Source: Rickettsiales bacterium (GTDB lineage Bacteria; Pseudomonadota; Alphaproteobacteria; Rs-D84; CACZYB01). Taken from it: a stretch of DNA of 64,000 nucleotides. Of the stretch, positions 2,079-52,611 are shown piece after piece. A program made the translations under genes and the position numbers. The DNA is taken from the NCBI GenBank assembly GCA_031263095.1, contig JAISGI010000015.1, positions 12,328-76,327 on the forward strand, read 5' to 3'. Position 1 is the stretch's first letter; each line of letters starts with the position of its first letter. Under the pieces are notes generated by a model. That model was not told where the DNA came from. It made no database searches and saw only the letters and a program-made list of their open reading frames with translations.

Positions 2079-2173
2079 GGTTCAAGCCTACCACTCTCAC
2101 GTCTTATATGTCAACTATCCGCTTTACAAATACACAGATTCAGTGTAAAATATTCTGGATACAGGAGAGTATT

Positions 2174-5014
2174 ATGAGAAAAGTACTTCTTTTCCTTGCC
2201 GCTTTTGTCATGGCGAATGGCGCCTTTGCGGCAAGGACTATAAACGGGATAACTTATTCCGAGGGACCCTACAGCTGCGCCGTCTGCGTGGCGGGCACCT
2301 ATTGCCCGCAGGGTTCGACAAGCTCCGTACCCTGCGTGCCCGGCGACTATTGCCCCGAGAATTCCGCGGCGAAGATAACCTGCCCGGGCGGGTCTTTCTG
2401 CACGACGCCGGCGACCAAGGACGACTGCGCCCTTGGCGAGTATTGCCCTGCCGGCACGACCGGAGCGACAATTCAGGATAGATTATGCGACGCAGGTTCG
2501 TTCTGCTCCACCACCACTTTGATAGCCAACTGCCTGCCCGGCGAATACTGCCCCGCCGGCACTTTCGCACCCGATAGGACAAGCAGGCTTTGTCCCGCAG
2601 GCTCGTGGTGCACGTCCGATACGCTTACCAAGAAGCCCTGCGGCTCTGGCGAGTATTGCCAGGCGGGTACTACCGAATCCGACCCGGAGAAAAGGAAATG
2701 TCCAGCGGGCAATTACTGTACCGATACTACCTCGCCTCCTTTGCCCTGCGACCTTGGCGAATACTGTCCGCTTGGAACTAGCGAGCAGAATTCCGCAAAC
2801 CGCCAGTGTCCCGCCGGCTGGTACTGCGCCGACACGACTGACAAGGTTGGGTGCGTATCGACCATGTATTGCCCGGAAGGCAGCACGACCCCGGATAGTT
2901 GCGCCGCGGGAAGCTATTGCTCCTCGGACGCCAAGACCCAGACGCCATGCGCAAGCGGCCAGTACTGCCCGGCCGGAAGCGTATTTACCCAGCCTTGCCC
3001 TGCTGGTTCCTACTGCGAGACCCCGGCGACGATAGCGCTCTGCCCGGCTGGCAAATATTGCGACGAGGGTTCGACCTTGCTCACGGACAGCACGCATGTC
3101 CACCCGTGCCCGGCCGGATATATCTGCGATGCCGGCACGACGCCCGCGACCAAGACGGCCACTTCCTGCTACGCCGGATTCGTATGCCCCGAGGGTACTT
3201 CGCCCGCGACTGCCAACAATACCAAGTGTCCCGCGGGCTACGTCTGCGGCTACGGCACCACTCCGGCCACGGCTCAGGATACGCAGTGTCCGGCTGGTTT
3301 GGTCTGCGGCGAGGGCGCGACCCCGAACGATGTTTCAAGCGTAAGCGGCAACGTCGGCTATTGCCCTGCCGGAAAAGTGTGCGACGTTGGCACTACCCCG
3401 GCGACCGCGAACAATACATGCTGCCCCGCCGGTTTTGCCTGCGGCGAGGGTACTTCGCCCGCGGACGTCGCAAACCCGAGCGGTTCGGACGGCCGTGTCG
3501 AGGTCTGCTCGTCCTGTCAGGCCTGCTCGGTGATAGTGCCCGATTCGACATCCTGCCCCGCCGGCCACTTCTGCTTCAACGGCATAAGGGGAACCTGCCA
3601 GGCGGGCGAATACTGCCCTGAGGGTGGAACCTACACCTCGGTCGAACGTAGCGACAGGCTCTGCGCCGGGGGCGATGTTTGCTCCGCCGACACCAAGACC
3701 ATAACCGATACATGCGACTCGGGCGAGTTCTGCCCTCCCGGCACCTACTATGGCCAAACCGTGGTATCCGCGGTAAGTGGACGGCAGGAATGCCCCGCAG
3801 GGTACTATTGCTCCACCGACACCAAGACTATAACCGAGTGCGAGACCGAGGGTTGGTACTGCTCCGCCGGCTCTACCACGTGGCAGTATTGCCCTGCTGG
3901 CTCGTACTGCTCCACTTCTAAGGTCATACAAGCATGCGTCGCTGGACAGTACTGTCCCGAGGCCTCGAGCGCCGCGGCAACCTGCCAGGCCGGTTATAAA
4001 TGCTCCAAAGAGGCGGACACAAGGTCCAAGTGTGACGAGGGCTGGCTCTGCTTAGCCGGAACATATGACACTCAGCCGATAGTCTCTGGCTCTTCCGGTG
4101 AGCAGCGTTGCCCCGCGGGACACGTGTGCGCCGCTGACGCGTCTTCCATTACGAAATGCACCGCAGGCGAGTATTGCAACGAGGGTACCTACGTCGGACA
4201 GCCTGTTGTCCCGGGCTCTACCGGACGCCAGACATGCCCGGCAGGCTATGAGTGTACTGACGACGCGGCCGCTATCGAGCCGTGCGAATCTGGACAGCTT
4301 TGTTTGGCGGGTTCAAACGTGGGCAAAATGGGCAGCTCCGGCACCGACATAGGCCGCCACCAATGTCCTGCGGGATACGAATGTTCGGCTGCCGCGTCAA
4401 GCTATACCGAGTGCGCCTCCGGCGAATACTGCCCTGCTGGCTCCTACGTGGGTCAGGCTGTGGTAGAGGCTTCCGCCGGCAGGCAAAGCTGTCCCGCCGG
4501 ACGCTACTGCCTGAATGCGGCAAGCATTTCCCAGTGCTCGCCCGGTTCGTACTGCCCGATAGGCATGACTACGGCGAATCCCGACTGTACGGCCGGTTCA
4601 TGGTGCACCACTGACGCCAAGACTATTACGGAATGTAGTGCTGGCGACTACTGCCCGGCGCGCACGTTCGCAGATAACGCCGCTGGAGTAAGTTGCCCGG
4701 TCGGATACGTATGTTCCAACGTGACGACCAAGAACAACTGCGGCGCTGGATATATCTGCCCTAATACCGGCATGCAGACTGCGATACCGTGCGCGCCTGG
4801 CTCGTACTCTGACGCGACGAACTCGACGGCGCTTGCCTGCATCGCTTGCCCAGCCAATGCCTGGAGCGACCCGGCCTCAAGCGCGCTTGAGGCCTGCGGC
4901 ACCTGCGACGCCGGCAAGTTCATCGAGGTCTGCCCGACCGGCGACTGCGACGCCGAGAAAAAGGCTCGCCCGAACTGCTCGTATAATTCGAACAATACAT
5001 ATACCTGCTCGTAA
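2174..5014 (+). CDS. large secreted cysteine-rich repeat protein (~40 tandem C-P-A-G-x-Y-C units; GCC2/GCC3- or ephrin-receptor-like pattern)
   Basis: An AGGAG Shine-Dalgarno site precedes the ATG at 2174. A signal peptide (MRKVLLFLAAFVMANGAFA) is followed by about 940 aa made of ~20–24-aa repeats of the form C(P/A)AG(S/T/Y)(Y/W/F)C...T(T/S)...C. A hairpin terminator follows at 5018-5048. The listed ORF start at 2060 reads through the upstream intergenic region and is unlikely to be the true start. Confidence 0.75.
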   Translation: MRKVLLFLAAFVMANGAFAARTINGITYSEGPYSCAVCVAGTYCPQGSTSSVPCVPGDYCPENSAAKITCPGGSFCTTPATKDDCALGEYCPAGTTGATIQDRLCDAGSFCSTTTLIANCLPGEYCPAGTFAPDRTSRLCPAGSWCTSDTLTKKPCGSGEYCQAGTTESDPEKRKCPAGNYCTDTTSPPLPCDLGEYCPLGTSEQNSANRQCPAGWYCADTTDKVGCVSTMYCPEGSTTPDSCAAGSYCSSDAKTQTPCASGQYCPAGSVFTQPCPAGSYCETPATIALCPAGKYCDEGSTLLTDSTHVHPCPAGYICDAGTTPATKTATSCYAGFVCPEGTSPATANNTKCPAGYVCGYGTTPATAQDTQCPAGLVCGEGATPNDVSSVSGNVGYCPAGKVCDVGTTPATANNTCCPAGFACGEGTSPADVANPSGSDGRVEVCSSCQACSVIVPDSTSCPAGHFCFNGIRGTCQAGEYCPEGGTYTSVERSDRLCAGGDVCSADTKTITDTCDSGEFCPPGTYYGQTVVSAVSGRQECPAGYYCSTDTKTITECETEGWYCSAGSTTWQYCPAGSYCSTSKVIQACVAGQYCPEASSAAATCQAGYKCSKEADTRSKCDEGWLCLAGTYDTQPIVSGSSGEQRCPAGHVCAADASSITKCTAGEYCNEGTYVGQPVVPGSTGRQTCPAGYECTDDAAAIEPCESGQLCLAGSNVGKMGSSGTDIGRHQCPAGYECSAAASSYTECASGEYCPAGSYVGQAVVEASAGRQSCPAGRYCLNAASISQCSPGSYCPIGMTTANPDCTAGSWCTTDAKTITECSAGDYCPARTFADNAAGVSCPVGYVCSNVTTKNNCGAGYICPNTGMQTAIPCAPGSYSDATNSTALACIACPANAWSDPASSALEACGTCDAGKFIEVCPTGDCDAEKKARPNCSYNSNNTYTCS

Positions 5015-10222: not shown

Positions 10223-10800
10223 ATGACAAGGAACTATAAACGTACGGGGGGGGGCAAAAGGCTAAATACCTAGCGTTTACGCTTCTCCTACTATCAGCCA
10301 ACAACTCTCAATCAGCCAATTATTATACCTGCACAGCTTGCGCCGTGCCCGGTGTCTGCCAAGCCGGAGCAAGCACAGATTTTAATAAGTACAACGCTCC
10401 GCTCACACTTGCCGAGGCTACCGCCGCCATAGGAACACCCGCAACGAACAGGTGGACGCTTGTGGACGAGCAGCCAACCGCATACCAAGTAAAATGCGGC
10501 ACTCTTCCAACCGGAATATACCGTCTTGACGCATACAACTCGGTGGAATCCTACAGCTCGCAGATAGCCGTGCTCGATAAGCCGACGGATTATACCCTTT
10601 GGCTGAACGATAGTCCTACTCCTGGATTGAATGTAAGGATTTATATGGGGACCAATTCTTGCGGCGCTTTCAATGGCTGTAACGGTGAGAACTGCAAATT
10701 TATGATACTTGCGTCCACGAATTCCAGATATACGCCCGGCATAACGCTTGACGACATGAAGCATGCCGCAAGGAATGTCGCCATATATCGGCTTCAATAG
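10223..10800 (+). CDS. phase-variable small secreted Cys-motif protein, family copy A; G9 tract at 10246-10254 leaves it out of frame (ON at 10 G)
   Basis: Leader GTCAAACCAAAGGACAAGACCG-ATG (Shine-Dalgarno plus ATG at 10223). ATG ACA AGG AAC TAT AAA CGT ACG-G9 then hits TAG at 10271 with 9 G. With 10 G it reads MTRNYKRTGGGQKAKYLAFTLLLLSANNSQSANYYTCTACAVPGVCQAGASTDFNKYNAPLTLAEATAAIGTPATNRW...AIYRLQ (the frame of ORF 10345-10800). Confidence 0.8.
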
Positions 10801-15900: not shown

Positions 15901-16473
15901 ATGGAAATCGAAACCAAACACCGCGTTCACGACCTCTCGAAGCTAAAGGAAGCCCTCGAAAAACAGGGCTTTAGGTACGAGAAGACCAAGCGTCAAATCG
16001 ACCGCTATTACATCCCGCGCGCCTACGACGACAGGGTCGAGACGGTATGGCCGATACTGCCGGATATGGTCGGCAATGTCCGCCTTCGGGAGACCGACGG
16101 CAAAACGCAAAGCCTCGACCTGAAGTATATAGGCGTTGACGTGGACGAGTCTGACGCCAGGAAAATTACCGAATTCGAGGTAGCCATAGCGGACGCTGGC
16201 TCGCTTGCGAACGCTACGAAAATCCTTGACCTGCTTGGCTTTGCCGAGATCTGCGTAATCGACAAGACCCGCGAAATCTGGCGGTTTGAGGAGGTCGAGG
16301 CCTGCCTCGACTCGGTCGCGAACCTAGGCGATTTTATCGAGCTGGAAATAATGTCCGACGACAAGGACTTGGCCGCCGCGCGCCTGGTAAGCCTCGGCGC
16401 CGCGCTTGGCCTGTCCGATTCAGACAAGCTTAAATGGGGCTATAACGAACTTTTGAAAGGACGCAAGAAATGA
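15901..16473 (+). CDS. CYTH-domain protein (class IV adenylate cyclase / triphosphatase family)
   Basis: N-terminal EIETKHRV pattern and acidic motifs typical of CYTH/CYaB; 190 aa. Confidence 0.55.
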   Translation: MEIETKHRVHDLSKLKEALEKQGFRYEKTKRQIDRYYIPRAYDDRVETVWPILPDMVGNVRLRETDGKTQSLDLKYIGVDVDESDARKITEFEVAIADAGSLANATKILDLLGFAEICVIDKTREIWRFEEVEACLDSVANLGDFIELEIMSDDKDLAAARLVSLGAALGLSDSDKLKWGYNELLKGRKK

Positions 16474-17372
16474 GCATTATGGTTTTTGGACACTCCGCGC
16501 CGGACACCGATTCGGTCGTATCGGCCATCGCCGCCGCATACCTGATAGGGGGCGAGCCGTACGTCCAAGGCGAGATTCAGCCCGAGGCGGAATTCGTGCT
16601 TGAAAAATTCGGTTTGGAAACGCCGAAACGGCTGGAATCCGTGGCTGGTGCGGATGTCGCGCTTGTCGATACGACCGAGCCCTCCCAACTGCCGGACGAT
16701 ATTGCCGAGGCGAACGTCAAGTACGTCTTCGACCACCATAACTTGGGCGGTTTGAAGACAAGAGGCGCGTTCGAGGGGTGGTTTATGCCCGTGGGCTGCT
16801 CGTCCACTGTTTTGCGCGACTATGCCGAGTGCGAGGGCAGGGAGCTCCCGGTAAATCTCGCCGGCGCCATGCTCTGCGCCATACTTTCGGATACGGTTCT
16901 GTTCAAGTCGCCGACCACGACCGATGCTGACAAAACTGCGGCCGAGAAGCTTGCCAAAATTGCCGGCATAGAGGACTATAATGCATTGGGCATGGAAATG
17001 CTCCGCGTCAAGTCCGCCATCGGGGACAAGACAGCCGACGACCTTATCGGCGGCGATTACAAGGAAATAGAGATAAACGGCAAGATGTTCGGCACCGGCC
17101 AGATTGAGCTTGTCGACGCATCCATGGCCGACCGCCTGGTTCCGGCGATTCGCGCACGGTTGGAGGAGCTGAAAAACAAGAAAGGCTACTTCGGCATGAT
17201 ATTCCTTATAACGGATATAATGAGGGAGGGCTCCCGCCTGTTCGTCTTCTCGGACGACGACGCGAAAGTCGCCGCCGCGCTCCACGCCGACCTGAACGAC
17301 CACGAGGCTTGGGTCGACGGCCTGATGAGCCGCAAGAAACAGATTGTCATCCCGCTTGGCGAGAAAATCTGA
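16470..17372 (+). CDS. ppaC: manganese-dependent inorganic pyrophosphatase (family II, DHH)
   Basis: MVFGHSAPDTDSV...DHHNLGG DHH motifs, followed by a DHHA2-like C-terminal half. Confidence 0.8.
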   Translation: MSIMVFGHSAPDTDSVVSAIAAAYLIGGEPYVQGEIQPEAEFVLEKFGLETPKRLESVAGADVALVDTTEPSQLPDDIAEANVKYVFDHHNLGGLKTRGAFEGWFMPVGCSSTVLRDYAECEGRELPVNLAGAMLCAILSDTVLFKSPTTTDADKTAAEKLAKIAGIEDYNALGMEMLRVKSAIGDKTADDLIGGDYKEIEINGKMFGTGQIELVDASMADRLVPAIRARLEELKNKKGYFGMIFLITDIMREGSRLFVFSDDDAKVAAALHADLNDHEAWVDGLMSRKKQIVIPLGEKI

Positions 17373-17395
17373 CCGCTAAACAAATTGAAGCTATG

Positions 17396-17425
17396 AAAAA
17401 CCCGCGGCATGTACGTGGGTTTTTC
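17396..17425. terminator. bidirectional terminator hairpin
   Basis: aaaaaCCCgcggcatgtacgtGGGttttt sits between the convergent ppaC gene and the lipoprotein gene. Confidence 0.5.
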
Positions 17426-17494
17426 ATTCAAATTTCCCAATTGAAAAAGACGACCCCGGGCTTTACCCGGGGGAAGTATTTTTCAATTGCCCGG

Positions 17495-18526
17495 CTACTG
17501 CCTTTTAGCACCAAACACACCATATACAGATAACGGCTGATTCGTCGCCGTGTTGTCAAGCCAGAAATTTCCCGCGGTTTCCGATATTATTCCACCCTCA
17601 CCGAAGAAAGAGTGGTTATAGCACTGCCCGCTGCTTGGGTTCCCGCACGTGGCGTTCTCTGCTTGGGACATGTAGTACTTGCTGTTGTTGCCCAGGATGC
17701 GTATTGTGCCGTCGGTCTTATAGGTTATGTTGTACCCCCACGTGTCCTTGAAATTCAGTTGGAGCTGCTCGTTTCCGTTCTGCTCGATGGTGAATATGGA
17801 TTGCCCGGTAAAGTCAGCCCAATCGTCCGTCCCGTCCTTGCCCACGACCGCATAGGCCTTGCCGAAGAAGTTTATTTTTCCAAGGTGCTGGTCTCTGGTC
17901 GCACTCGTGTCGAAAATCTGGCTCTCCGGCCGCGGCACGGTTATGAAGAGGTCATACTCCGGATGCGGCCCGGCGATAAGCTTGCCGTTCAGGAACACCT
18001 GCGACACGCTCTTCCAGTATCCGAAATCCGCATACTGCATGCCGAGCGACCCGCCGCCAAGCACGATCGAAGCGTCGATTCTCTGATTCATGGCGGTTAT
18101 CTTGCTTCTGTCGTATTGGATGCCTAATTGGTTCAGTTGGGAGATAAGCAACTCTGTGCTGCGCGCCTCGTATTTGTCTCCACTGGACGACGTGTATCCG
18201 AACAGCGGTAGGTTCATGGTCTTGTCCGCCTGATACGAGCCCGAGTTGTTCATATAGAAGTCGTTCACGGAGAATGCAACCTCGTCTTTAAGGTCGCTCG
18301 ACTGGTGCCATATATAGTTGATTTTGCCGTCTTCGTTGAAAAAATACTTTACCTGCCCGCCAGACGAGGGATTGACCGCATTATAGTTTATGCCGGTTAT
18401 GTCGTATGTTACAGGCTCGGCGGCAAGGGTGACAATTTTCTCGGCCGGAATATGCACCTCCTTGGGCGAAGACGTCCCGCACGCGCCAAGACAAAGCATG
18501 ATTGCTATAAGGGAAGTGTGTTTCAT
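17495..18526 (-). CDS. surface lipoprotein, TbpB/fHbp-like C-terminus (putative Slam-type SLP)
   Basis: A GAGGAG Shine-Dalgarno site precedes the ATG at 18526. It has a lipoprotein signal (MKHTSLIAIMLCLGAC-G) and a beta-rich body, and ends in ...YGVFGAKRQ. Confidence 0.55.
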   Translation of the reverse strand: MKHTSLIAIMLCLGACGTSSPKEVHIPAEKIVTLAAEPVTYDITGINYNAVNPSSGGQVKYFFNEDGKINYIWHQSSDLKDEVAFSVNDFYMNNSGSYQADKTMNLPLFGYTSSSGDKYEARSTELLISQLNQLGIQYDRSKITAMNQRIDASIVLGGGSLGMQYADFGYWKSVSQVFLNGKLIAGPHPEYDLFITVPRPESQIFDTSATRDQHLGKINFFGKAYAVVGKDGTDDWADFTGQSIFTIEQNGNEQLQLNFKDTWGYNITYKTDGTIRILGNNSKYYMSQAENATCGNPSSGQCYNHSFFGEGGIISETAGNFWLDNTATNQPLSVYGVFGAKRQ

Positions 18527-18602
18527 AATGCTCCTCTCTTTGCCAATATGATACCACAAAATCCCCTTTTCGTCAACAATATATGATTTCTATATAAAAG
18601 CG

Positions 18603-18636
18603 AAAAAATCCTTACGGCGTGTACGTGGGATTTTTT
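18603..18636. promoter_or_regulatory. hairpin element in a divergent promoter region, related to the one at 17396
   Basis: aaaaaaTCCttacggcgtgtacgtGGGAtttttt shares the GTGTACGTGGG core and flanks (…CAAT(T/C)GAAAAAGA) with 17396-17450. Confidence 0.4.
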
Positions 18637-18777
18637 CTCAAACAACCAATCGAAAAAGAGCGGAGCCGCTAGGCGAGCGCGACTTTTCGATTGCTAGTAT
18701 ATTTTTCATATTGCCAAGACGCCGAAAATGTGGTATAATAATCCCAGACATAAGGCAATACCTAGGAGGAGGAAGTC

Positions 18778-19890
18778 ATGCATAAACTCATGAAGTCGAT
18801 ATCGGTTCTGGCGATTCTTGCGCTTGCCGCGTGCGGAGGATCTGATAGCAATAGCCCGAGCGTTGACAATCCTGGCACGGGCTCGGGTACTGGTACCGGT
18901 ACAGGCTCAAAGAATCCGTCGTACAAGACAGATACCCCCACGAACGAGGATATGGTAACCCTTGCCTACGACCTCCCGCTTGGGCTGGTCCAGATTGAGG
19001 GCGATACCGAAATGTACGACATCCTCAAGTACGAGGCCAACACATACAACGAAAATATCGGCCTCTGGTACAGTACCATTCTGAACCTGGACGCTGCAGA
19101 TCCGGATGACGAGATAGAAGTCGAACGGTTCATCCCGGCCAAGCAGTTTATAAAGGACGGCAACGGCAACTGGACGGCCAAGACAACGTTCAATTTCACC
19201 TCCGGAGATTCTTACGCCAAGTTTGTCGATGGGTACATGACCACTTCGGAGGCTTCCGACGCTAATAATTTCGACCTTATCAAGCTTGACGTTGCACCGG
19301 TGCTGATGGGCGCGACTACGGACAAGACGGGCATGGCTTTCGTCGAGTACGGCTATTGGAAAAAGACCGCTTACCAAGGCGCTGTCGCCCAGTTCACTAC
19401 GTTCGAGCCGTTCGTCGGCGGCTTCGAGACGCACATGATTGACGACGCGTTGCTTCCCACGACCGGCGCTGCTATGACATTCTCGGGCCACGCTGGCGGC
19501 GGCATAAACGGCGTCGCTCCCGGCGCGACAAACACCGCCTTGAGCGGCGCGCAGCAGGAGCTTGTCGGCACCTCGTACCTTGTCCTTACTCCCGGCACTA
19601 CCTCGTCCGAAACGCTTAAATTGGCGTTCAACAACTTCTATACGTTCAACTTCACGAACGGCGGCTTCACGAGCATAGAGGGCGCGGCCACCGGAGACTA
19701 TGCCACCGCCTATGCTGGCAAACTTGCAACGTCCGGTGTCGATACGTCCAACAGCGGCTATACCCGCGACTTCTACGGCCGCAACTATACGCCCGAGGAG
19801 GTAGCCGGCATTGCCAACTTGACCATAACCGGAACGGATAGCAACATATACTATCTCAACGCCGCTTTCGGCGCCAAGAAAGCGAAATAG
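18778..19890 (+). CDS. surface lipoprotein paralog, TbpB/fHbp-like C-terminus
   Basis: GGAGGAGG Shine-Dalgarno site, a lipobox (LAILALAAC-G), a G/S/T-rich linker and the motifs FVEYGYWK and ...AAFGAKKAK at the C-terminus. It is transcribed divergently from 17495..18526. Confidence 0.55.
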   Translation: MHKLMKSISVLAILALAACGGSDSNSPSVDNPGTGSGTGTGTGSKNPSYKTDTPTNEDMVTLAYDLPLGLVQIEGDTEMYDILKYEANTYNENIGLWYSTILNLDAADPDDEIEVERFIPAKQFIKDGNGNWTAKTTFNFTSGDSYAKFVDGYMTTSEASDANNFDLIKLDVAPVLMGATTDKTGMAFVEYGYWKKTAYQGAVAQFTTFEPFVGGFETHMIDDALLPTTGAAMTFSGHAGGGINGVAPGATNTALSGAQQELVGTSYLVLTPGTTSSETLKLAFNNFYTFNFTNGGFTSIEGAATGDYATAYAGKLATSGVDTSNSGYTRDFYGRNYTPEEVAGIANLTITGTDSNIYYLNAAFGAKKAK

Positions 19891-20032: not shown

Positions 20033-20773
20033 ATGAAGCTCAATATCGCAAGTATCGCAGTTTTGGCCGCGCTTGGCCTTGCCGTGCCTGTGTCGGCGGA
20101 CGTGAATTCCAATCCTTGGGAGGATAGGGACAGGGAGGCGAAAATGCCCGGCCACTCGCCTGATTCCGTCGTGTACGAAATCTCCGACATCTGGGCCGGC
20201 CGCGACCGCGAGGAAAATATGAAGGGCGGCGGCCACATGGCCGAGAAGAAAGAGAGTGCTCCCAAGGCGCGCGCCTCAAGCCCTAAAAAGGAAAAGGAGA
20301 CGAAATACGTTTCCTACGAAAAGGAGCCGGAACCCAAATCCCGCCGCTACTCCGACAAGCCGGTCGAGCGCAAGATGTACGCGCCCGCGGCCTATGACGA
20401 CGATCTGACGCCGGATGAGCTTGCCTCCATCGAGCGGTGGCAGAATGGCATAAAGAACGTGTTCTGGGAGGACTATCGCGGAAACAACGTCCGCGTCGAG
20501 GTTCTCCGCACCAACCAGGATGTCAAGGAAATGCGCCTGAAGTTCGTCCAAAGCCAGGATATGAACTCCGATCCTGACGGCTCGGTTACCGCAATGCTCG
20601 ACAATGTGGCGGACGCGGTGATAAAGCGCACCTGCGGCAAGGCCAGCCGGCAGGCGATAATCCTCTACGAGCGCCCCTCGGTCGAGGTCACCAAACAGAC
20701 GACCTACGACGACTATCGCATAGTCGCCCGCGGCGCAAGCTTGCGCGAATACGGCTTCCGCTGTATATACTAG
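20033..20773 (+). CDS. secreted hypothetical protein with a charged K/E/P-rich linker
   Basis: Shine-Dalgarno site GAGGAGAGAG, a signal peptide (MKLNIASIAVLAALGLAVPVSA) and a terminator at 20793-20822. Confidence 0.5.
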   Translation: MKLNIASIAVLAALGLAVPVSADVNSNPWEDRDREAKMPGHSPDSVVYEISDIWAGRDREENMKGGGHMAEKKESAPKARASSPKKEKETKYVSYEKEPEPKSRRYSDKPVERKMYAPAAYDDDLTPDELASIERWQNGIKNVFWEDYRGNNVRVEVLRTNQDVKEMRLKFVQSQDMNSDPDGSVTAMLDNVADAVIKRTCGKASRQAIILYERPSVEVTKQTTYDDYRIVARGASLREYGFRCIY

Positions 20774-21006: not shown

Positions 21007-21547
21007 ATGACATATATGAACAAAAAGCGTACGGGGGGGGGCAAATAAGTATTTAGTTATTGCGCTTCTCCTGATTTCGACTAACTCTCAATCTTCAAAT
21101 TACTATACCTGTACTGCCTGCGCCATACCCGGAGCATGTCAGGCCGGGGCAAACGCAGACTTTGACAAGTACAACACTCCACTTACGCTTGCCGAAGCTA
21201 CCGCCGCAATCGGCACGCCCTCAAAATCGAGATGGAGCCTTATAGATGGTGGCCATTTCGTCAACAAGCGCGGTACTCTCTCGCCCGGAGCTTACATGAT
21301 AAGCGGCAATGCCAGCATGTCCGCCGGAGGCTGCACGTCCCAGGTGGCGGTGTTCGACAGGGAAGTTGGCTATAACCTGCTTGCCGACGGCATAACGATA
21401 GACACGAACAACCCCGTGTTCAGCGGCACTACCTGGGGAGTGTATAGTCCAGCGGACTGCTCGGCAGACACGCTTCAGACTCCTGGCTGGAGCAAGGAGG
21501 ACATAACCGCCCAGTCTTTCGGCAGCTATATATACAAACTCCAATAA
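21007..21547 (+). CDS. phase-variable family copy C; G9 at 21033-21041 (ON at 8 G)
   Basis: Leader GTCTAACCAAAGGAGAAAGACGGCA-ATG. At 9 G it stops (AAA TAA). At 8 G it reads MTYMNKKRTGGANKYLVIALLLISTNSQSSNYYTCTACAIPGACQAGANADFDKYNTPLTLAEATAAIGTPSKSRWSLIDGG...GSYIYKLQ. Confidence 0.8.
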
Positions 21548-21772: not shown

Positions 21773-22358
21773 CTAGTTCAGCCGATAAATCGCGCTGCCA
21801 AGCCTTGTTCCGTAATGGTATATGTCGTCCTCGGCAAGTCCAGGTGTTCTTACGCCCTTGTCTAGGTATCCCGTGACGCGCGTGCTCTCCGTGGTATAGG
21901 TCGCATGGTCGAAGTCTATCATGGTGCACGATTGGTCGGAATATTGGTTGTACAGTTGATACGATATGTCCCTGTCCGCGACCACCACGCGCGAGTCGTA
22001 CATATTGCCACCGGTATAGTTGTCGAAGCGGTATATTCCCGGCGGCAGGGTTCCTCTAGGTTGAGAGTATTGTCCCTCGGCAAGCGCTTCGCCCGATACG
22101 ACCATAGTCCACCTGGCCTTGTCGGGCGTGCCGATGCATGCTGTCGCCTCCTCAAGCGAAAGAACTTTGCGCGGCGGACATTCGGCCGGAGGATTGGCGT
22201 ATTCGCTTACCGCGCCAGCAGAGCAAAATTTCGCGATTGTGCACGCGCTACAGGTGTAGTAATTAGCAGAGTTTGATTTGTTAGTAGATAATAAGAGAAG
22301 CGCAGTAGCTAAGAATAACTTATTTGCCCCCCCCCGTACGCATATCGTTCCTTGTCAT
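21773..22358 (-). CDS. phase-variable family copy D; C9 on the plus strand at 22327-22335 (ON at 8)
   Basis: The reverse strand reads GGTCAAACCAAAGGAGAAGACCG-ATG ACA AGG AAC GAT ATG CGT ACG-G9. At 8 G it gives MTRNDMRTGGANKLFLATALLLLSTNKSNSANYYTCSACTIAKFCSAGA...CIGTPDKARWTMVVSGE...AIYRLN. The promoter has an extended -10 (TGATATAAT). Confidence 0.8.
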
Positions 22359-22498: not shown

Positions 22499-23185
22499 TC
22501 ACTCTTTCAGGAATTCGCTTTCCATGCTTTCAAGCTGCTTGAGTTGCCGTTCCAGGTCGCGCACTTCGGAGGCTTTATAGCCATCCTCGTCCGCCGAGGT
22601 CGCATCCTCTAGGGGCGCCACATCCGGGCGGTTCAGGCTTTCGAATTTAAGCTCGGATTCCGAGATATTGCTGTGGACAAGCTCGTGCACCGGCTTGAAA
22701 GCCCCGTCGTCCGGAAGCAGCATGGCTACGAACAGCGCACTCGAGCGAAGCACCGGCTTTGATTTCGCCTGCTGAACCCAATCGGGACGCTCGGCCGGGT
22801 TGGGCATGAACCACAGTATCCCAATATACACCGCCGCCATAAGCAATATGCCCCTCATTATCCCGAACAGGAAGCCAAGGGACTTGTCTATGCCGTCGAA
22901 GCTCGTCTCGCGCAGGCGGGTACCGGACCAGTGGCCGATGAAGCTCAGAAGCATTATCACGATAACGAAGACCGATATATATGACGCTATGCTGACCAGC
23001 ATTGCGCTGTGCCCGAAGACTCCGGCGAACATCGGCTCGGCCATTGGAGAGAACGCCTTGGCAAGCAGGGCGGCGGCTATCCACGATACAACCGAAAGCA
23101 CGCCGGCGATGAAGCCTCCGCTATAGCCGAATACTGCGGACGCAGCCACCATCGCTATAAATATGAAGTCCATAAGCGTCAGCAT
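22499..23185 (-). CDS. cvpA: CvpA-family membrane protein (colicin V production protein homolog)
   Basis: Four TM helices at the N-terminus with a charged C-terminal tail; typical CvpA architecture. Confidence 0.65.
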   Translation of the reverse strand: MLTLMDFIFIAMVAASAVFGYSGGFIAGVLSVVSWIAAALLAKAFSPMAEPMFAGVFGHSAMLVSIASYISVFVIVIMLLSFIGHWSGTRLRETSFDGIDKSLGFLFGIMRGILLMAAVYIGILWFMPNPAERPDWVQQAKSKPVLRSSALFVAMLLPDDGAFKPVHELVHSNISESELKFESLNRPDVAPLEDATSADEDGYKASEVRDLERQLKQLESMESEFLKE

Positions 23186-40014: not shown

Positions 40015-40152
40015 ATCCGTATTGGATTTATCAGGAAACGTGGGGGGGGGTAAATCGCTGATTTTGCACAGATTGTCCGTATTCTATGGCGCAAGCCTCT
40101 GTTTGGGACGAAAATGCATATAAGATTGACGAGAGCCTTGCGGATTTCCATT

Positions 40153-51315: not shown

Positions 51316-51883
51316 ATGAATAAGAACATACTGCGTACGGGGGGGGGCAAATAAGTATATAGCTACTGCGCTTCTCCTAATATCGGCTCAAACTCAATCT
51401 TCAAATTATTACACCTGCACAGCTTGCCCGCCTTTGCGCGACGCACCTGCCGGCTCGACCAGCTGCAAGCCGACCGGCGCGACTTGCCCAAAAAACCGCT
51501 TCCTGACCCTGGCCGAAGTTGAAAGTTGCCTCGGCGACATAGCGCTTGCCGAATGGGGCGAGGCGATCTTCACCGCGAGTATGAATAATCCGTCGCAAAC
51601 TCCGACAACTGTACAGCCGGGAATCTATAGGGCCGATACGTTCTACAATAATACATCGCTGGATGCCTCCGCGATATTCGTCGCGGACAAGCCCTTGGGT
51701 CTAAGCTTCCAGCATTCCTCGGACAATTTCTCCGTCCGCATAGATGCGGATAACGCGACGTATGCAAACCCTACCTCAAGCCTTGGCAACTGTAGCGTTT
51801 GCTCGCAAAACAGAACCGTAGAAACGCCGAACGTCGTGAACTATCCATCCGGCGCCAACAAAGGCTATCTGTACAGGCTCTAG
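51316..51883 (+). CDS. phase-variable family copy L; G9 at 51339-51347 (ON at 8 G)
   Basis: Leader GTCTAACCAAAGGAGAAAGACG-ATG AAT AAG AAC ATA CTG CGT ACG-G9. At 8 G it reads MNKNILRTGGANKYIATALLLISAQTQSSNYYTCTACPPLRDAPAGSTSCKPTGATCPKNRFLTLAEVESCLG...GYLYRL. It is preceded by ACTAGAATTATTACAAT (51233-51249) and a promoter with TATTATAT. Its stop overlaps the 3' end of the lipoprotein gene on the opposite strand. Confidence 0.8.
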
Positions 51884-52611
51884 CGCTTGACGCCCCATAC
51901 GCCTTCAAGCCGGGAGAGACCCGAGGATACAGACACTCTCCCGGCCGCCTCGGTCGGGTTTCCACTGTCAATGCCGTAAAGCTGGCCGGAGAGGTTCCCG
52001 ACGGTTTCTCCAGATGAAAACGTTATACCGGATATATTCTCCCCGGTTCTGATGACGGCTACCGGACCGTTATAGGAGATTGCACCGCCTTCGGACGTTA
52101 TATTCGCGAACGAGAATTTATAGAAGTCCGCGAATTCAAGGTCGAGCTTTTGCACAGAAAAGTCAAGCTTGGCCACGCCGGATACTATCATGGCCACGTC
52201 CGACCCGTTAGAGGCGACTGCCACGGTCGAACCGGTGAAGATTCCGCCGGACGGAGCCGTTGTCGCCCACCTAGCCTCGTCTTCGGCAATCTCGATTTTA
52301 TACGCGGCCCAAGGCATTGTTTCATAGTGTGGGCTCGGAGCGAACTCTCCGACAGAGGCCCAAAGGCCAAGCGATACATGCTCAAGCTCGAACTTTGTCC
52401 AATCTCCCCGCACGCCGCCAAGATAGTCGTTGTTTTCCGCCTGCCTGCCAGAGGAAGATTCTCCGCCGGGATTTCCCGCCCCCGGTTGGTTTTCCAAGGG
52501 CGGAGGAACGCTCCCTTCTTTCTGACTATTGGAAGTGAATTCCGGTGCGCCGGCCCTATAACATCCCGCAAGCATTACTAGAACAAGCAGACGTAATTCC
52601 CGCAAATGCAT
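51880..52611 (-). CDS. lipoprotein with a TbpB/fHbp-like C-terminal barrel-type motif
   Basis: Signal-peptide lipobox (LVMLAGC-Y) and a C-terminus ...LSRLEGVWGVKR, related to the ends of 17495..18526 and 18778..19890. Confidence 0.5.
   Translation of the reverse strand: MHLRELRLLVLVMLAGCYRAGAPEFTSNSQKEGSVPPPLENQPGAGNPGGESSSGRQAENNDYLGGVRGDWTKFELEHVSLGLWASVGEFAPSPHYETMPWAAYKIEIAEDEARWATTAPSGGIFTGSTVAVASNGSDVAMIVSGVAKLDFSVQKLDLEFADFYKFSFANITSEGGAISYNGPVAVIRTGENISGITFSSGETVGNLSGQLYGIDSGNPTEAAGRVSVSSGLSRLEGVWGVKR

What the first reader, a model, noticed from the sequence alone, without database searches (positions are those of the whole stretch)
17495..19890. Divergent pair of paralogous surface lipoproteins with a TbpB/fHbp-like C-terminal motif; a third relative lies at 51880-52611
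Three lipoproteins (17495-18526, 18778-19890, 51880-52611) end in G(V/A)(F/W)G(A/V)K(R/K) after a beta-rich domain (...YGVFGAKRQ, ...AAFGAKKAK, ...GVWGVKR). The first two share YGYWK motifs.

This ending is characteristic of Slam-dependent surface lipoproteins (TbpB, LbpB, fHbp, HpuA) that bind host proteins.

The first gene is bracketed by two copies of a ~55-nt hairpin element (17390-17450 and 18595-18660, shared core GTGTACGTGGG(A/T)TTTTT...CAAT(T/C)GAAAAAGA). That is consistent with duplication or insertion as a unit.
Basis: partly seen in the sequence, partly recalled or inferred. Interest (0 to 1): 0.55.

Follow-up and report, generated by a model that had tools for sequence, protein, structure and literature searches.

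The report
Slam-cargo-type surface lipoproteins, unlinked from Slam
Three fast-evolving lipoprotein genes in this uncultured Rickettsiales-labelled bacterium belong to a database-unnamed family that in other bacteria sits directly upstream of the Slam outer-membrane exporter, so they are probably cell-surface proteins of a known kind, but no Slam gene and no iron-uptake partner lies near them here.

Summary
A (17495-18526, -), B (18778-19890, +) and C (51880-52611, -) are real lipoprotein genes with the stated C-terminal endings. A is flanked by two copies of a two-hairpin element.

The three are distant paralogues (23-29% identity) of one family of about 60 metagenomic clusters. No member reaches a curated cut-off in Pfam or NCBIfam. 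The only recurrent weak hits are TbpB_B_D (10 of 37 domains) and slam_lipo (5 of 37).

An AlphaFold model of B gives a confident C-terminal beta module. Its only geometrically sound PDB match is the NHBA barrel (TM 0.59).

The decisive evidence is gene context. Four family members I looked up are each directly followed by a Slam gene (PF04575). In a Slam-seeded genome scan, all 7 loci with upstream DNA carry a family member just upstream of Slam.

So the family is Slam/T11SS-cargo type. In this window and three Rickettsiales-type loci no Slam is adjacent, and the rest of the genome could not be searched.

I found no Fur, Irr or RirA box and no TonB-dependent receptor, so these are not TbpB-like iron receptors. 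The head-to-head A-type/B-type pair is conserved in two other genomes, so A is not a recent insertion.

Verdict: new member of a known kind, moderate interest. Separately, the window holds 15 genes that each begin with a frame-breaking G9 tract.

The parts
17495..18526 (-). Lipoprotein A (343 aa, 'A-type'). Signal peptide plus lipobox LGAC (Cys16), an N-terminal variable domain, and the C-terminal family module ending YGVFGAKRQ.
   Evidence: ORF. Identical to MAG protein LBL52_01620. Leave-out family profile E=3.5e-23. Best full-length relatives are P0009 and P0010.
17498..18070 (-). C-terminal family module of A (about residues 153-342): LGG..L.YADFGYW ... F.GKA ... L.L.F ... FFG....SETAGNF ... 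GVFGAKR.
   Evidence: hmmsearch alignment. Pfam TbpB_B_D E=0.14 on residues 148-193 of the domain, matched to the C-terminal end of the profile.
18778..19890 (+). Lipoprotein B (370 aa, 'B-type'). Signal peptide plus lipobox LAAC (Cys19), a Gly/Ser/Thr-rich disordered linker, a small beta handle, and the C-terminal family module ending AAFGAKKAK.
   Evidence: ORF. Identical to LBL52_01625. AF2 model pLDDT 71. Counterpart P0004 at the syntenic position, 31% identity.
19279..19887 (+). C-terminal beta module of B (residues 168-370). Three strands precede the FSGHAGG motif, and eight strands follow from it to the C-terminus.
   Evidence: AF2 model: blocks at pLDDT 80-95, strands 168-178, 189-200, 203-215, then 233-246 through 357-368. 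Foldseek hit on the NHBA C-terminal barrel 6cuj_A, TM 0.59, prob 1.0.
51880..52611 (-). Lipoprotein C (243 aa). Lipobox LAGC (Cys17), a short Gly/Pro-rich linker, then essentially only the family module, ending EGVWGVKR.
   Evidence: ORF. Leave-out family profile E=9e-30. NCBIfam slam_lipo E=0.17 at its C-terminal end. 32% identical to a C-like gene beside the B counterpart in L002.
18548..18576 (-). Promoter-like site for A: TTGACG-17-TATCAT, with TG before the -10 element.
   Evidence: Consensus scan, 10 of 12 matches. Consensus match only.
18711..18739 (+). Promoter-like site for B: TTGCCA-17-TATAAT, with TG before the -10 element. An AGGAGGAGG ribosome-binding site lies upstream of the ATG.
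   Evidence: Consensus scan, 11 of 12 matches. Sequence.
17388..17491 (.). Left copy of the two-hairpin element, between the convergent 3' ends of the pyrophosphatase-like gene (16470-17372, named from my reading of its translation, no family search run) and A. Both hairpins have A-run/U-run flanks, the shape of a bidirectional terminator.
   Evidence: MFE -50 kcal/mol, z -6.3.
18598..18699 (.). Right copy of the two-hairpin element, lying between the divergent A and B promoters. No gene reads into it there.
   Evidence: No Rfam family. The A-type/B-type spacers in L007 and L025 are only about 105 nt, against 251 nt here.

Best explanation
A, B and C are members of a family of outer-membrane lipoproteins that no curated model names, and that is of the Slam (type 11 secretion) cargo kind. 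Each has four parts:
- a Sec signal peptide with a lipobox cysteine;
- a flexible linker;
- a variable N-terminal handle or effector part (nearly absent in C);
- a conserved C-terminal module of about 180 residues, which in the model of B has three strands followed by eight, the last two carrying the motifs (F/L)YG....(P)xE(A/V)xG and G.(F/W)G(A/V)K(K/R).

**Shown here.**
- The three genes, their lipoboxes and their shared family.
- The beta-rich fold of B's C-terminal module.
- A weak but specific sequence and structure resemblance to TbpB_B_D, slam_lipo and NHBA barrels.
- Tight gene linkage of other family members to Slam genes in other Proteobacteria.
- Conservation of the head-to-head A-type/B-type pair in related genomes.
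- Much faster divergence of B than of its neighbours.

**Inferred.** After lipidation and Lol transport to the outer membrane, the proteins are passed through a Slam translocon encoded elsewhere in the genome and displayed on the cell surface. There the variable N-terminal parts bind an unknown host or environmental ligand. With no adjacent TonB-dependent receptor and no iron-regulator box, they would act as stand-alone surface proteins, as fHbp, NHBA or NilC do, and not as the lipoprotein half of a TbpA/TbpB-type iron receptor.

The two-hairpin element on each side of A is most likely a duplicated terminator-like intergenic repeat, not the scar of a gene insertion.
For: **Family.**
- The A+B+C profile against 1.84 billion representatives gave 60 non-self relatives at E<=1e-3. 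Most are lipoproteins of about 330 aa with a CGGGGGG linker, matched up to their C-termini.
- A leave-out profile recovers only A, B and C in the window.

**Relation to known surface-lipoprotein barrels.**
- TbpB_B_D is the only Pfam family hit by more than one member: 10 of 37 domains, best E=2.2e-4, always at the profile's C-terminal end.
- slam_lipo is hit by 5 of 37 domains, best E=7e-6.
- The PDB profile search puts the NHBA barrel in the top three places (E 0.17-0.41).
- hhalign against NHBA gives 77% probability and E=2e-5. Against a three-sequence TbpB/NHBA/fHbp barrel template it gives 80% and E=1.4e-5 over the last two strands.
- The AF2 model of B has pLDDT 80-95 in the C-terminal module. 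Foldseek matches NHBA 6cuj_A at TM 0.59, prob 1.0.

**Slam linkage.**
- P0012, P0021, P0033 and P0013 are each followed on the same strand by a PF04575 SlipAM gene; three of the four also carry PF24575 TPR_Slam, and P0033's shows only faint generic TPR hits.
- In the Slam-seeded genome scan, 7 of 7 loci with upstream DNA have a family member directly upstream of Slam.
- P0033 is the closest relative of B and P0004 outside the Rickettsiales-type genomes.

**Pair conservation.** L007 and L025 carry a 564-aa or 490-aa B-type member head-to-head with an A-type member.

**Fast evolution.** B and P0004 share 31% identity, while the flanking genes share 60% and 62.5%.

The cargo architecture and export pathway are taken from PMC5449769, PMC12282271 and PMC9090332.
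Against: - No Slam gene lies in the 64-kb window or in the three Rickettsiales-type loci. The rest of the MAG was not searchable.
- No family member reaches the curated cut-off of TbpB_B_D (26 bits) or slam_lipo (80 bits).
- Foldseek gave no PDB hit at E<=1e-3, and TbpB, fHbp and HpuA were not in the top 50.
- The resemblance in sequence to classical barrels covers only the last two strands.
- The model of A failed (pLDDT 38.6), and C was not modelled.
- Three family members outside the Rickettsiales-type genomes had no Slam in the sequence available (P0007, P0017, P0019).
- The ligand is unknown.
Confidence: 0.68

Rival explanations
1. Slam-independent lipoproteins. The lineage kept the cargo-type lipoproteins but has no Slam. 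They either stay on the periplasmic face of the outer membrane or reach the surface by another route.
For: 0 of 4 Rickettsiales-type loci have an adjacent Slam (window, L002, L007, L025). By contrast, 4 of 7 looked-up members from other bacteria, and 7 of 7 Slam-seeded loci, show the pairing. No paper in the searched library links Rickettsiales with DUF560/T11SS.
Against: About half of known Slam genes have no lipoprotein gene in their cluster (185 of 353 do; PMC5449769), so the two are often unlinked. The C-terminal motifs are fully kept in A, B and C, which suggests continued selection on the module that known cargo share. Only 64 kb of the genome was seen.
Confidence: 0.22
2. TbpB/LbpB/HpuA-like iron-acquisition co-receptors, iron-regulated and working with a TonB-dependent receptor.
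For: The C-terminal ending is identical in type to TbpB's VVFGAKRQ. A and B (343 and 370 aa) are, from my own recollection, about the size of single-lobe HpuA.
Against: The best Fur-box match in the A-B spacer is 11 of 19. No Irr ICE or RirA IRO box is present. No TonB-dependent receptor is among the window's large ORFs or next to any relative examined. A, B and C are single-lobed, and there is no sequence match to TbpB handle domains.
Confidence: 0.05
3. Gene A was duplicated or inserted as a unit together with the hairpin element.
For: Direct repeats of about 100 nt bracket exactly one gene, 1210 nt apart.
Against: A-type and B-type genes are head-to-head in L007 and L025 as well, so the pair predates this genome. 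A and B share only 23% identity. A and B face opposite ways, which a simple tandem duplication would not give. The window's spacer exceeds the ~105-nt spacers of L007 and L025 by about the length of the right element copy.
Confidence: 0.12
4. The similarity to surface-lipoprotein barrels is convergent: generic beta-rich lipoproteins with a chance C-terminal motif.
For: All matches to curated models are below their cut-offs. Alignments to TbpB and NHBA cover only 30-45 columns.
Against: Gene linkage to Slam in 11 independent loci. The recurrent and exclusive sub-threshold hits to TbpB_B_D and slam_lipo. NHBA is the top match by both sequence profile and fold.
Confidence: 0.04

Closest known systems
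Slam-dependent surface lipoproteins, also called type 11 secretion system cargo (Hooda et al. 2017, PMC5449769; PMC12282271)
   Same: Lipobox. A Gly-rich or disordered linker. A variable N-terminal handle or effector part. A conserved C-terminal beta module ending in the FYG...E.AG...FGAK(R/K) strands. Other family members sit directly upstream of a TPR_Slam+SlipAM gene.
   Different: No Slam lies near A, B or C or near their Rickettsiales-type relatives. The sequences fall below the cut-offs of the existing models. Hosts are uncultured gut-type MAGs, not respiratory-tract pathogens. The ligand is unknown.
NHBA (GNA2132) C-terminal beta-barrel of Neisseria meningitidis (PDB 2LFU, 6CUJ)
   Same: Best PDB match by profile (E 0.17), by hhalign (77%) and by fold (TM 0.59). 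The motif vsGkFYGpagEEvAGky...GgFGV is shared.
   Different: NHBA has a long disordered Arg-rich heparin-binding N-terminus. Identity is 17%. Only the last strands align in sequence.
TbpB / LbpB (transferrin and lactoferrin binding protein B)
   Same: Lipoprotein. The barrel ends ...GGFYGPKAEELGGWF...VVFGAKRQ, the same two-strand signature and ending as A.
   Different: TbpB is bilobed: the TbpB chains run from about 510 to 720 residues. From established knowledge, it is iron-regulated and encoded with the TonB-dependent receptor TbpA. A, B and C are single-lobed at 243-370 aa, with no receptor partner and no iron box.
fHbp and NilC-type stand-alone surface lipoproteins
   Same: Single small lipoproteins with an N-terminal beta domain plus a C-terminal barrel. 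They act alone, without a TonB-dependent receptor. This is the closest functional analogy.
   Different: No significant sequence match (hhalign to fHbp 2.4%). fHbp binds human factor H and NilC mediates nematode colonisation; nothing here indicates either ligand.

Membership tests
Slam-dependent surface lipoprotein / T11SS cargo | N-terminal signal peptide with a lipobox cysteine | tested here: met
   LGAC, LAAC and LAGC at Cys16, Cys19 and Cys17. 42 of the 63 listed proteins (60 relatives plus A, B and C) were flagged as having a lipobox by a strict pattern, and several unflagged ones also show one by eye.
Slam-dependent surface lipoprotein / T11SS cargo | [quoted passage not shown] | tested here: inconclusive
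   The model of B has eight strands from the FSGHAGG motif to the C-terminus at pLDDT 80-95. NHBA barrel match TM 0.59. Recurrent sub-threshold TbpB_B_D and slam_lipo hits. hhalign 77-80% over the last two strands. No hit reaches a curated cut-off, A's model failed, C was not modelled, and barrel closure was not inspected.
Slam-dependent surface lipoprotein / T11SS cargo | Gene linked to a Slam (TPR + DUF560/SlipAM) gene, or at least a Slam in the genome | tested here: inconclusive
   Met at family level: 4 looked-up members and 7 of 7 Slam-seeded loci. Not met in this window or in L002, L007 and L025. The rest of the genome could not be searched.
Slam-dependent surface lipoprotein / T11SS cargo | Slam-dependent exposure on the cell surface | not testable with these tools
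   Needs the E. coli co-expression and flow-cytometry or protease-shaving assay of PMC5449769.
Pfam PF01298 TbpB_B_D | Score at or above the gathering cut-off (26 bits) | tested here: not met
   Full-length A, B and C give no hit at E<=1. A's domain gives 13.1 bits, E 0.14. The best family member gives E 2.2e-4, below the cut-off.
NCBIfam NF041636 slam_lipo | Score at or above the cut-off (80 bits) | tested here: not met
   C scores 12.1 bits, E 0.17. The best family member gives E 7e-6.
TbpB / LbpB | Two handle-plus-barrel lobes | tested here: not met
   One family module per protein at 243-370 aa. PDB TbpB chains run from about 510 to 720 residues, with two matched barrel stretches.
TbpB / LbpB / HpuA | Adjacent TonB-dependent receptor partner and iron-responsive regulation | tested here: not met
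   No such receptor among the ten largest ORFs put through Pfam, nor in the others that I named by eye from their translations. No Fur, Irr or RirA box. These boxes are consensus sequences from other bacteria, so a negative result is only weakly informative.

The most novel reading that the evidence does not exclude
Rickettsiales-type, probably host-associated bacteria keep a conserved head-to-head pair of TbpB-barrel lipoproteins (A-type and B-type) but have no Slam. This would be either a Slam-independent route to the surface for cargo-type lipoproteins, or a new periplasmic or host-facing role for the barrel. The pair might act together as a fast-evolving two-part binder of a host ligand.
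Probability: 0.18. Interest if true: 0.6.

Novelty: new member of a known kind. Interest (0 to 1): 0.4.

Why it matters
It gives a name and a testable export route to about 60 clusters of 'hypothetical' lipoproteins that current Pfam and NCBIfam models miss. It extends Slam-cargo-type surface lipoproteins to uncultured, gut-associated Proteobacteria, including MAGs whose isolate names follow the naming used for termite-gut MAGs, and to a Rickettsiales-labelled lineage in which I found no report of them.

The family profile built here could seed a curated model.

If the lineage turns out to lack Slam, these genes would be a natural test case for how such barrels reach the surface without it. 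The much faster divergence of B than of its neighbours marks it as a candidate host-interaction or antigen gene.

Tried and rejected
**Searches that found nothing useful.**
- Direct family searches with full-length A, B and C found nothing significant in Pfam or NCBIfam.
- phmmer against the PDB found nothing relevant.
- The word-indexed homologue searches returned only the window's own proteins.
- Rfam found no family for the hairpin element. No third copy exists in the window or in the fetched loci.
- The search for Fur, Irr ICE and RirA IRO boxes was negative.

**Structure work that failed or was blocked.**
- AF2 of A with a 3-sequence alignment failed (pLDDT 38.6).
- The GFP-like Foldseek hits for B have TM 0.16-0.26 and rmsd about 17 A. 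I rejected them as spurious.
- The PDB profile search with full-length alignment A3 was swamped by signal-peptide and Gly-linker matches. I discarded it and repeated it with the trimmed domain.

- hhalign against fHbp was not significant (2.4%). Against the TbpB C-lobe alone it was weak (15%).

**Attempts to reach the rest of the genome.**
- Trying to extend the contig beyond the window yielded only about 700 nt. The whole-genome Slam test was therefore not possible.
- I considered the 490-aa and 564-aa genes next to P0010 and P0009 as possible divergent Slams. I rejected this: they are B-type members of the lipoprotein family.

**Side observation.** A metagenome scan for the poly-G gene module found nothing.
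Full report
**1. What is there**

The window comes from a 105-kb contig that its depositors labelled 'MAG: Rickettsiales bacterium' (locus tags LBL52_01620 and LBL52_01625). GC content is about 54%.

The ORF lists confirm three genes:
- A, 17495-18526 (-), 343 aa.
- B, 18778-19890 (+), 370 aa.
- C, 51880-52611 (-), 243 aa.

Each begins with a hydrophobic signal sequence followed by a lipobox (LGAC, LAAC, LAGC). A has FGYWK and B has YGYWK.

A and B are head-to-head across a 251-nt spacer that holds two strong promoter-like sites: TTGCCA-17-TATAAT for B and TTGACG-17-TATCAT for A.

**2. Are the three related, and beyond chance?**

Pairwise similarity is weak. A/B gives E=2e-4 at 23% identity over the full length, B/C gives E=1e-3 over the last 100 residues, and A/C is not significant.

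A profile of the three, searched against 1.84 billion representative proteins, found 60 further proteins at E<=1e-3. Most are about 330-aa lipoproteins with a 'CGGGGGG' linker, and the match runs to their C-termini.

The shared module is about 180 residues long: LGG...L.YA.FG.W, then FTG.A.G, then GTA.L......L.L.F.NFY.F, then GQFYG....PTEA.G.F, then G.FGVK(K/R).

A profile built from 34 of these relatives, without the window proteins, hits exactly three ORFs in the six-frame translation of the window: C 9e-30, A 3.5e-23 and B 4e-19. Everything else scores E>1. The paralogy is therefore real but old.

**3. Relation to known surface-lipoprotein barrels**

Full-length A, B and C hit nothing in Pfam. 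In NCBIfam only C gives a family-relevant weak match, slam_lipo at E=0.17.

Scanning the trimmed domains of 37 family members gives a clearer picture:
- TbpB_B_D is the only Pfam family matched by more than one member. Ten of 37 match, best E=2.2e-4. A's own domain gives E=0.14, aligned to the C-terminal end of the model.
- slam_lipo is the only recurrent NCBIfam model, matched by 5 of 37, best E=7e-6.
- None of these reaches a curated cut-off.

A PDB search with the domain profile puts three NHBA (GNA2132) barrel chains on top, at E 0.17-0.41.

Profile-profile comparison gives:
- 77% probability and E=2e-5 against NHBA;
- 15% against the TbpB C-lobe alone;
- 80% and E=1.4e-5 against a small TbpB/NHBA/fHbp barrel template.

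In each case only the last two strands are covered. They matched at 98% and 100% identity.

**4. Structure**

AF2 of A with only three sequences failed (pLDDT 38.6).

AF2 of B with a 61-sequence family alignment gave pLDDT 71 overall and 80-95 in residues 168-370. The model shows:
- a disordered linker at residues 26-82;
- a small four-strand unit at 93-134;
- three strands at 168-215;
- eight strands running from the FSGHAGG motif to the C-terminus.

That layout fits the 'effector, pedestal, eight-stranded barrel' scheme described for T11SS cargo (PMC12282271).

**5. Gene context decides the family's nature**

Of the family members outside the Rickettsiales-type genomes that I looked up, four are followed at once, on the same strand, by a gene with PF04575 SlipAM, the Slam/DUF560 outer-membrane protein; three of these four also carry PF24575 TPR_Slam. 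These are P0012, P0021, P0033 and P0013.

I then turned the test around. Two of these Slam proteins were used to seed a scan of 185,579 species genomes, which returned 10 Slam loci. They lie in MAGs labelled Deltaproteobacteria, Azoarcus and Proteobacteria, plus Candidatus Mailhella merdavium. One isolate prefix, Nt197, appears in a paper on 589 termite-gut MAGs (PMC7024585).

In all 7 loci that include upstream DNA, a family member (E 6e-20 to 3e-54) lies directly upstream of Slam.

This is the gene arrangement by which Slam-dependent surface lipoproteins were defined (PMC5449769). P0033 is also the closest relative of B and P0004 outside the Rickettsiales-type genomes.

**6. The Rickettsiales-type loci differ**

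No Slam is present in the window. All ORFs of at least 400 aa are housekeeping genes, LptD or a Cys-rich repeat protein, and profiles built from two and then four Slam sequences found nothing. Some of these ORFs (GyrB, NrdD, MiaB) I named by eye from their translations, without a family search.

The contigs of the relatives P0004 (MAG LBH41), P0009 (MAG LBT92) and P0010 also lack Slam.

Whether this organism has a Slam therefore remains open. Known Slams are often unlinked from lipoprotein genes: only 185 of 353 Slam clusters contained one (PMC5449769).

**7. Pair conservation and evolutionary rate**

In L007 and L025 the A-type genes P0009 and P0010 sit head-to-head with a 564-aa or 490-aa protein. 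That protein is itself a B-type member of the family, at E 2e-12 and 5e-14, with best BLAST hits to P0004 and B. The divergent A-type/B-type pair therefore predates these genomes.

In L002 the counterpart of B (P0004, at the syntenic position) is 31% identical. The next gene is 60% identical to 20033-20773, and the Colicin_V-family (CvpA-like) gene is 62.5% identical to 22499-23185. The lipoprotein thus diverges far faster than its neighbours, as an exposed, host-facing protein would be expected to do.

**8. The hairpin element**

The two copies (17388-17491 and 18598-18699) are significantly similar (score 25 against 8.7 +/- 1.3). They fold alike into two hairpins with A-run and U-run flanks, and they show a compensatory change in the stem of hairpin 2.

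The left copy sits between convergent genes and looks like a bidirectional terminator. The right copy sits between two divergent promoters, where no terminator is needed.

The pair is ancestral, and the spacers in L007 and L025 are only about 105 nt. I therefore read the right copy as a duplicated or inserted intergenic repeat, not as evidence that A moved.

No Rfam family matches it.

**9. Function**

No Fur box (best 11 of 19), Irr ICE box or RirA IRO box lies in the A-B spacer. No TonB-dependent receptor lies nearby. An iron co-receptor role like that of TbpB or HpuA is unsupported.

The most likely mechanism, inferred from the family, has these steps:
1. Sec export and lipidation.
2. Lol transport to the outer membrane.
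3. Passage through Slam (PMC9090332).
4. Surface display, with the variable N-terminal part binding an unknown ligand.

**10. Verdict**

These are new, database-unnamed members of the known Slam-cargo surface-lipoprotein kind. The open question is whether this lineage has a Slam at all. Interest is moderate.

**11. Seen in passing**

The window holds 16 G9 tracts, where chance predicts almost none. Fifteen of them lie in a conserved 5' gene module, and in every case the start codon is out of frame with the 165-190-codon secreted-protein ORF that follows. This may deserve more attention than the finding itself.

Noticed in passing
window G9 tracts starting at 10246(+), 12626(+), 21033(+), 22327(-), 23323(+), 25910(+), 30024(+), 32228(+), 41406(-), 45841(+), 51339(+), 54530(-), 56558(-), 57562(+), 60443(-); each gene spans about 600 nt downstream: Fifteen paralogous genes share a conserved ~140-nt 5' module: a -10-like box, the ribosome-binding region 'aaccaaaggagaagac', an ATG, 5-8 codons ending KRT, then exactly nine G. 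After the tract comes a signal peptide (KYIA.ALLLLSANNSQS), an NYYTC.AC Cys motif, and a 165-190-codon ORF ending TPGIT....AIY(K/R)L(N/Q/D). In all 15 the ATG is out of frame with the long ORF: nine need G8 or G11 and six need G10 or G7. G8 runs occur 32 times against 2.5 expected. The pattern looks like contingency loci (phase variation) or programmed transcriptional slippage. That every tract is exactly G9 and every gene is 'off' is unexplained. No Pfam family matches.
   Followed up: partly
window 21008-21547 (+), 21773-22350 (-), 51317-51883 (+): Three of the poly-G genes lie beside the lipoprotein loci. One is convergent with C and overlaps its stop codon by 4 nt. Two lie between B's neighbour and the Colicin_V-family (CvpA-like) gene at 22499-23185, where the related MAG LBH41 (L002) instead carries a C-like lipoprotein gene.
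   Followed up: partly
window 2168-5014 (+): A 948-aa secreted protein made almost entirely of Cys-rich repeats of the form 'CP(A/E)G.YC...T....C'. It has a signal peptide (MRKVLLFLAAFVMANGAFA) and no Pfam match. From my own recollection it resembles the variant surface proteins of protists.
   Followed up: partly
L011 4412-5578: One family member (P0019, 388 aa) is encoded inside a phage-like structural module, with Phage_Gp15 and Collar hits, a 1068-aa neighbour and glycosyltransferases. It is not next to Slam. This suggests a phage has borrowed the barrel lipoprotein.
   Followed up: no
window 20033-20773 (+): A 246-aa secreted protein (signal peptide MKLNIASIAVLAALGLAVPVSA) lies directly downstream of B. 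It is 60% identical to the gene downstream of B's counterpart in MAG LBH41 and matches no known family. It may be a conserved partner of the B locus.
   Followed up: partly
window 40042-40050 (+): A sixteenth G9 tract lies outside the conserved 5' module, with no upstream ATG within 45 nt and only a 23-codon ORF downstream.
   Followed up: no
L001 start (about window 18664) and the L022 end that lies inside the window (about window 9830): Independent short-read assemblies of the same sample (SRR14710921) break inside the right hairpin element and about 400 nt short of the first poly-G module. This fits these sequences being repeats in the genome.
   Followed up: no
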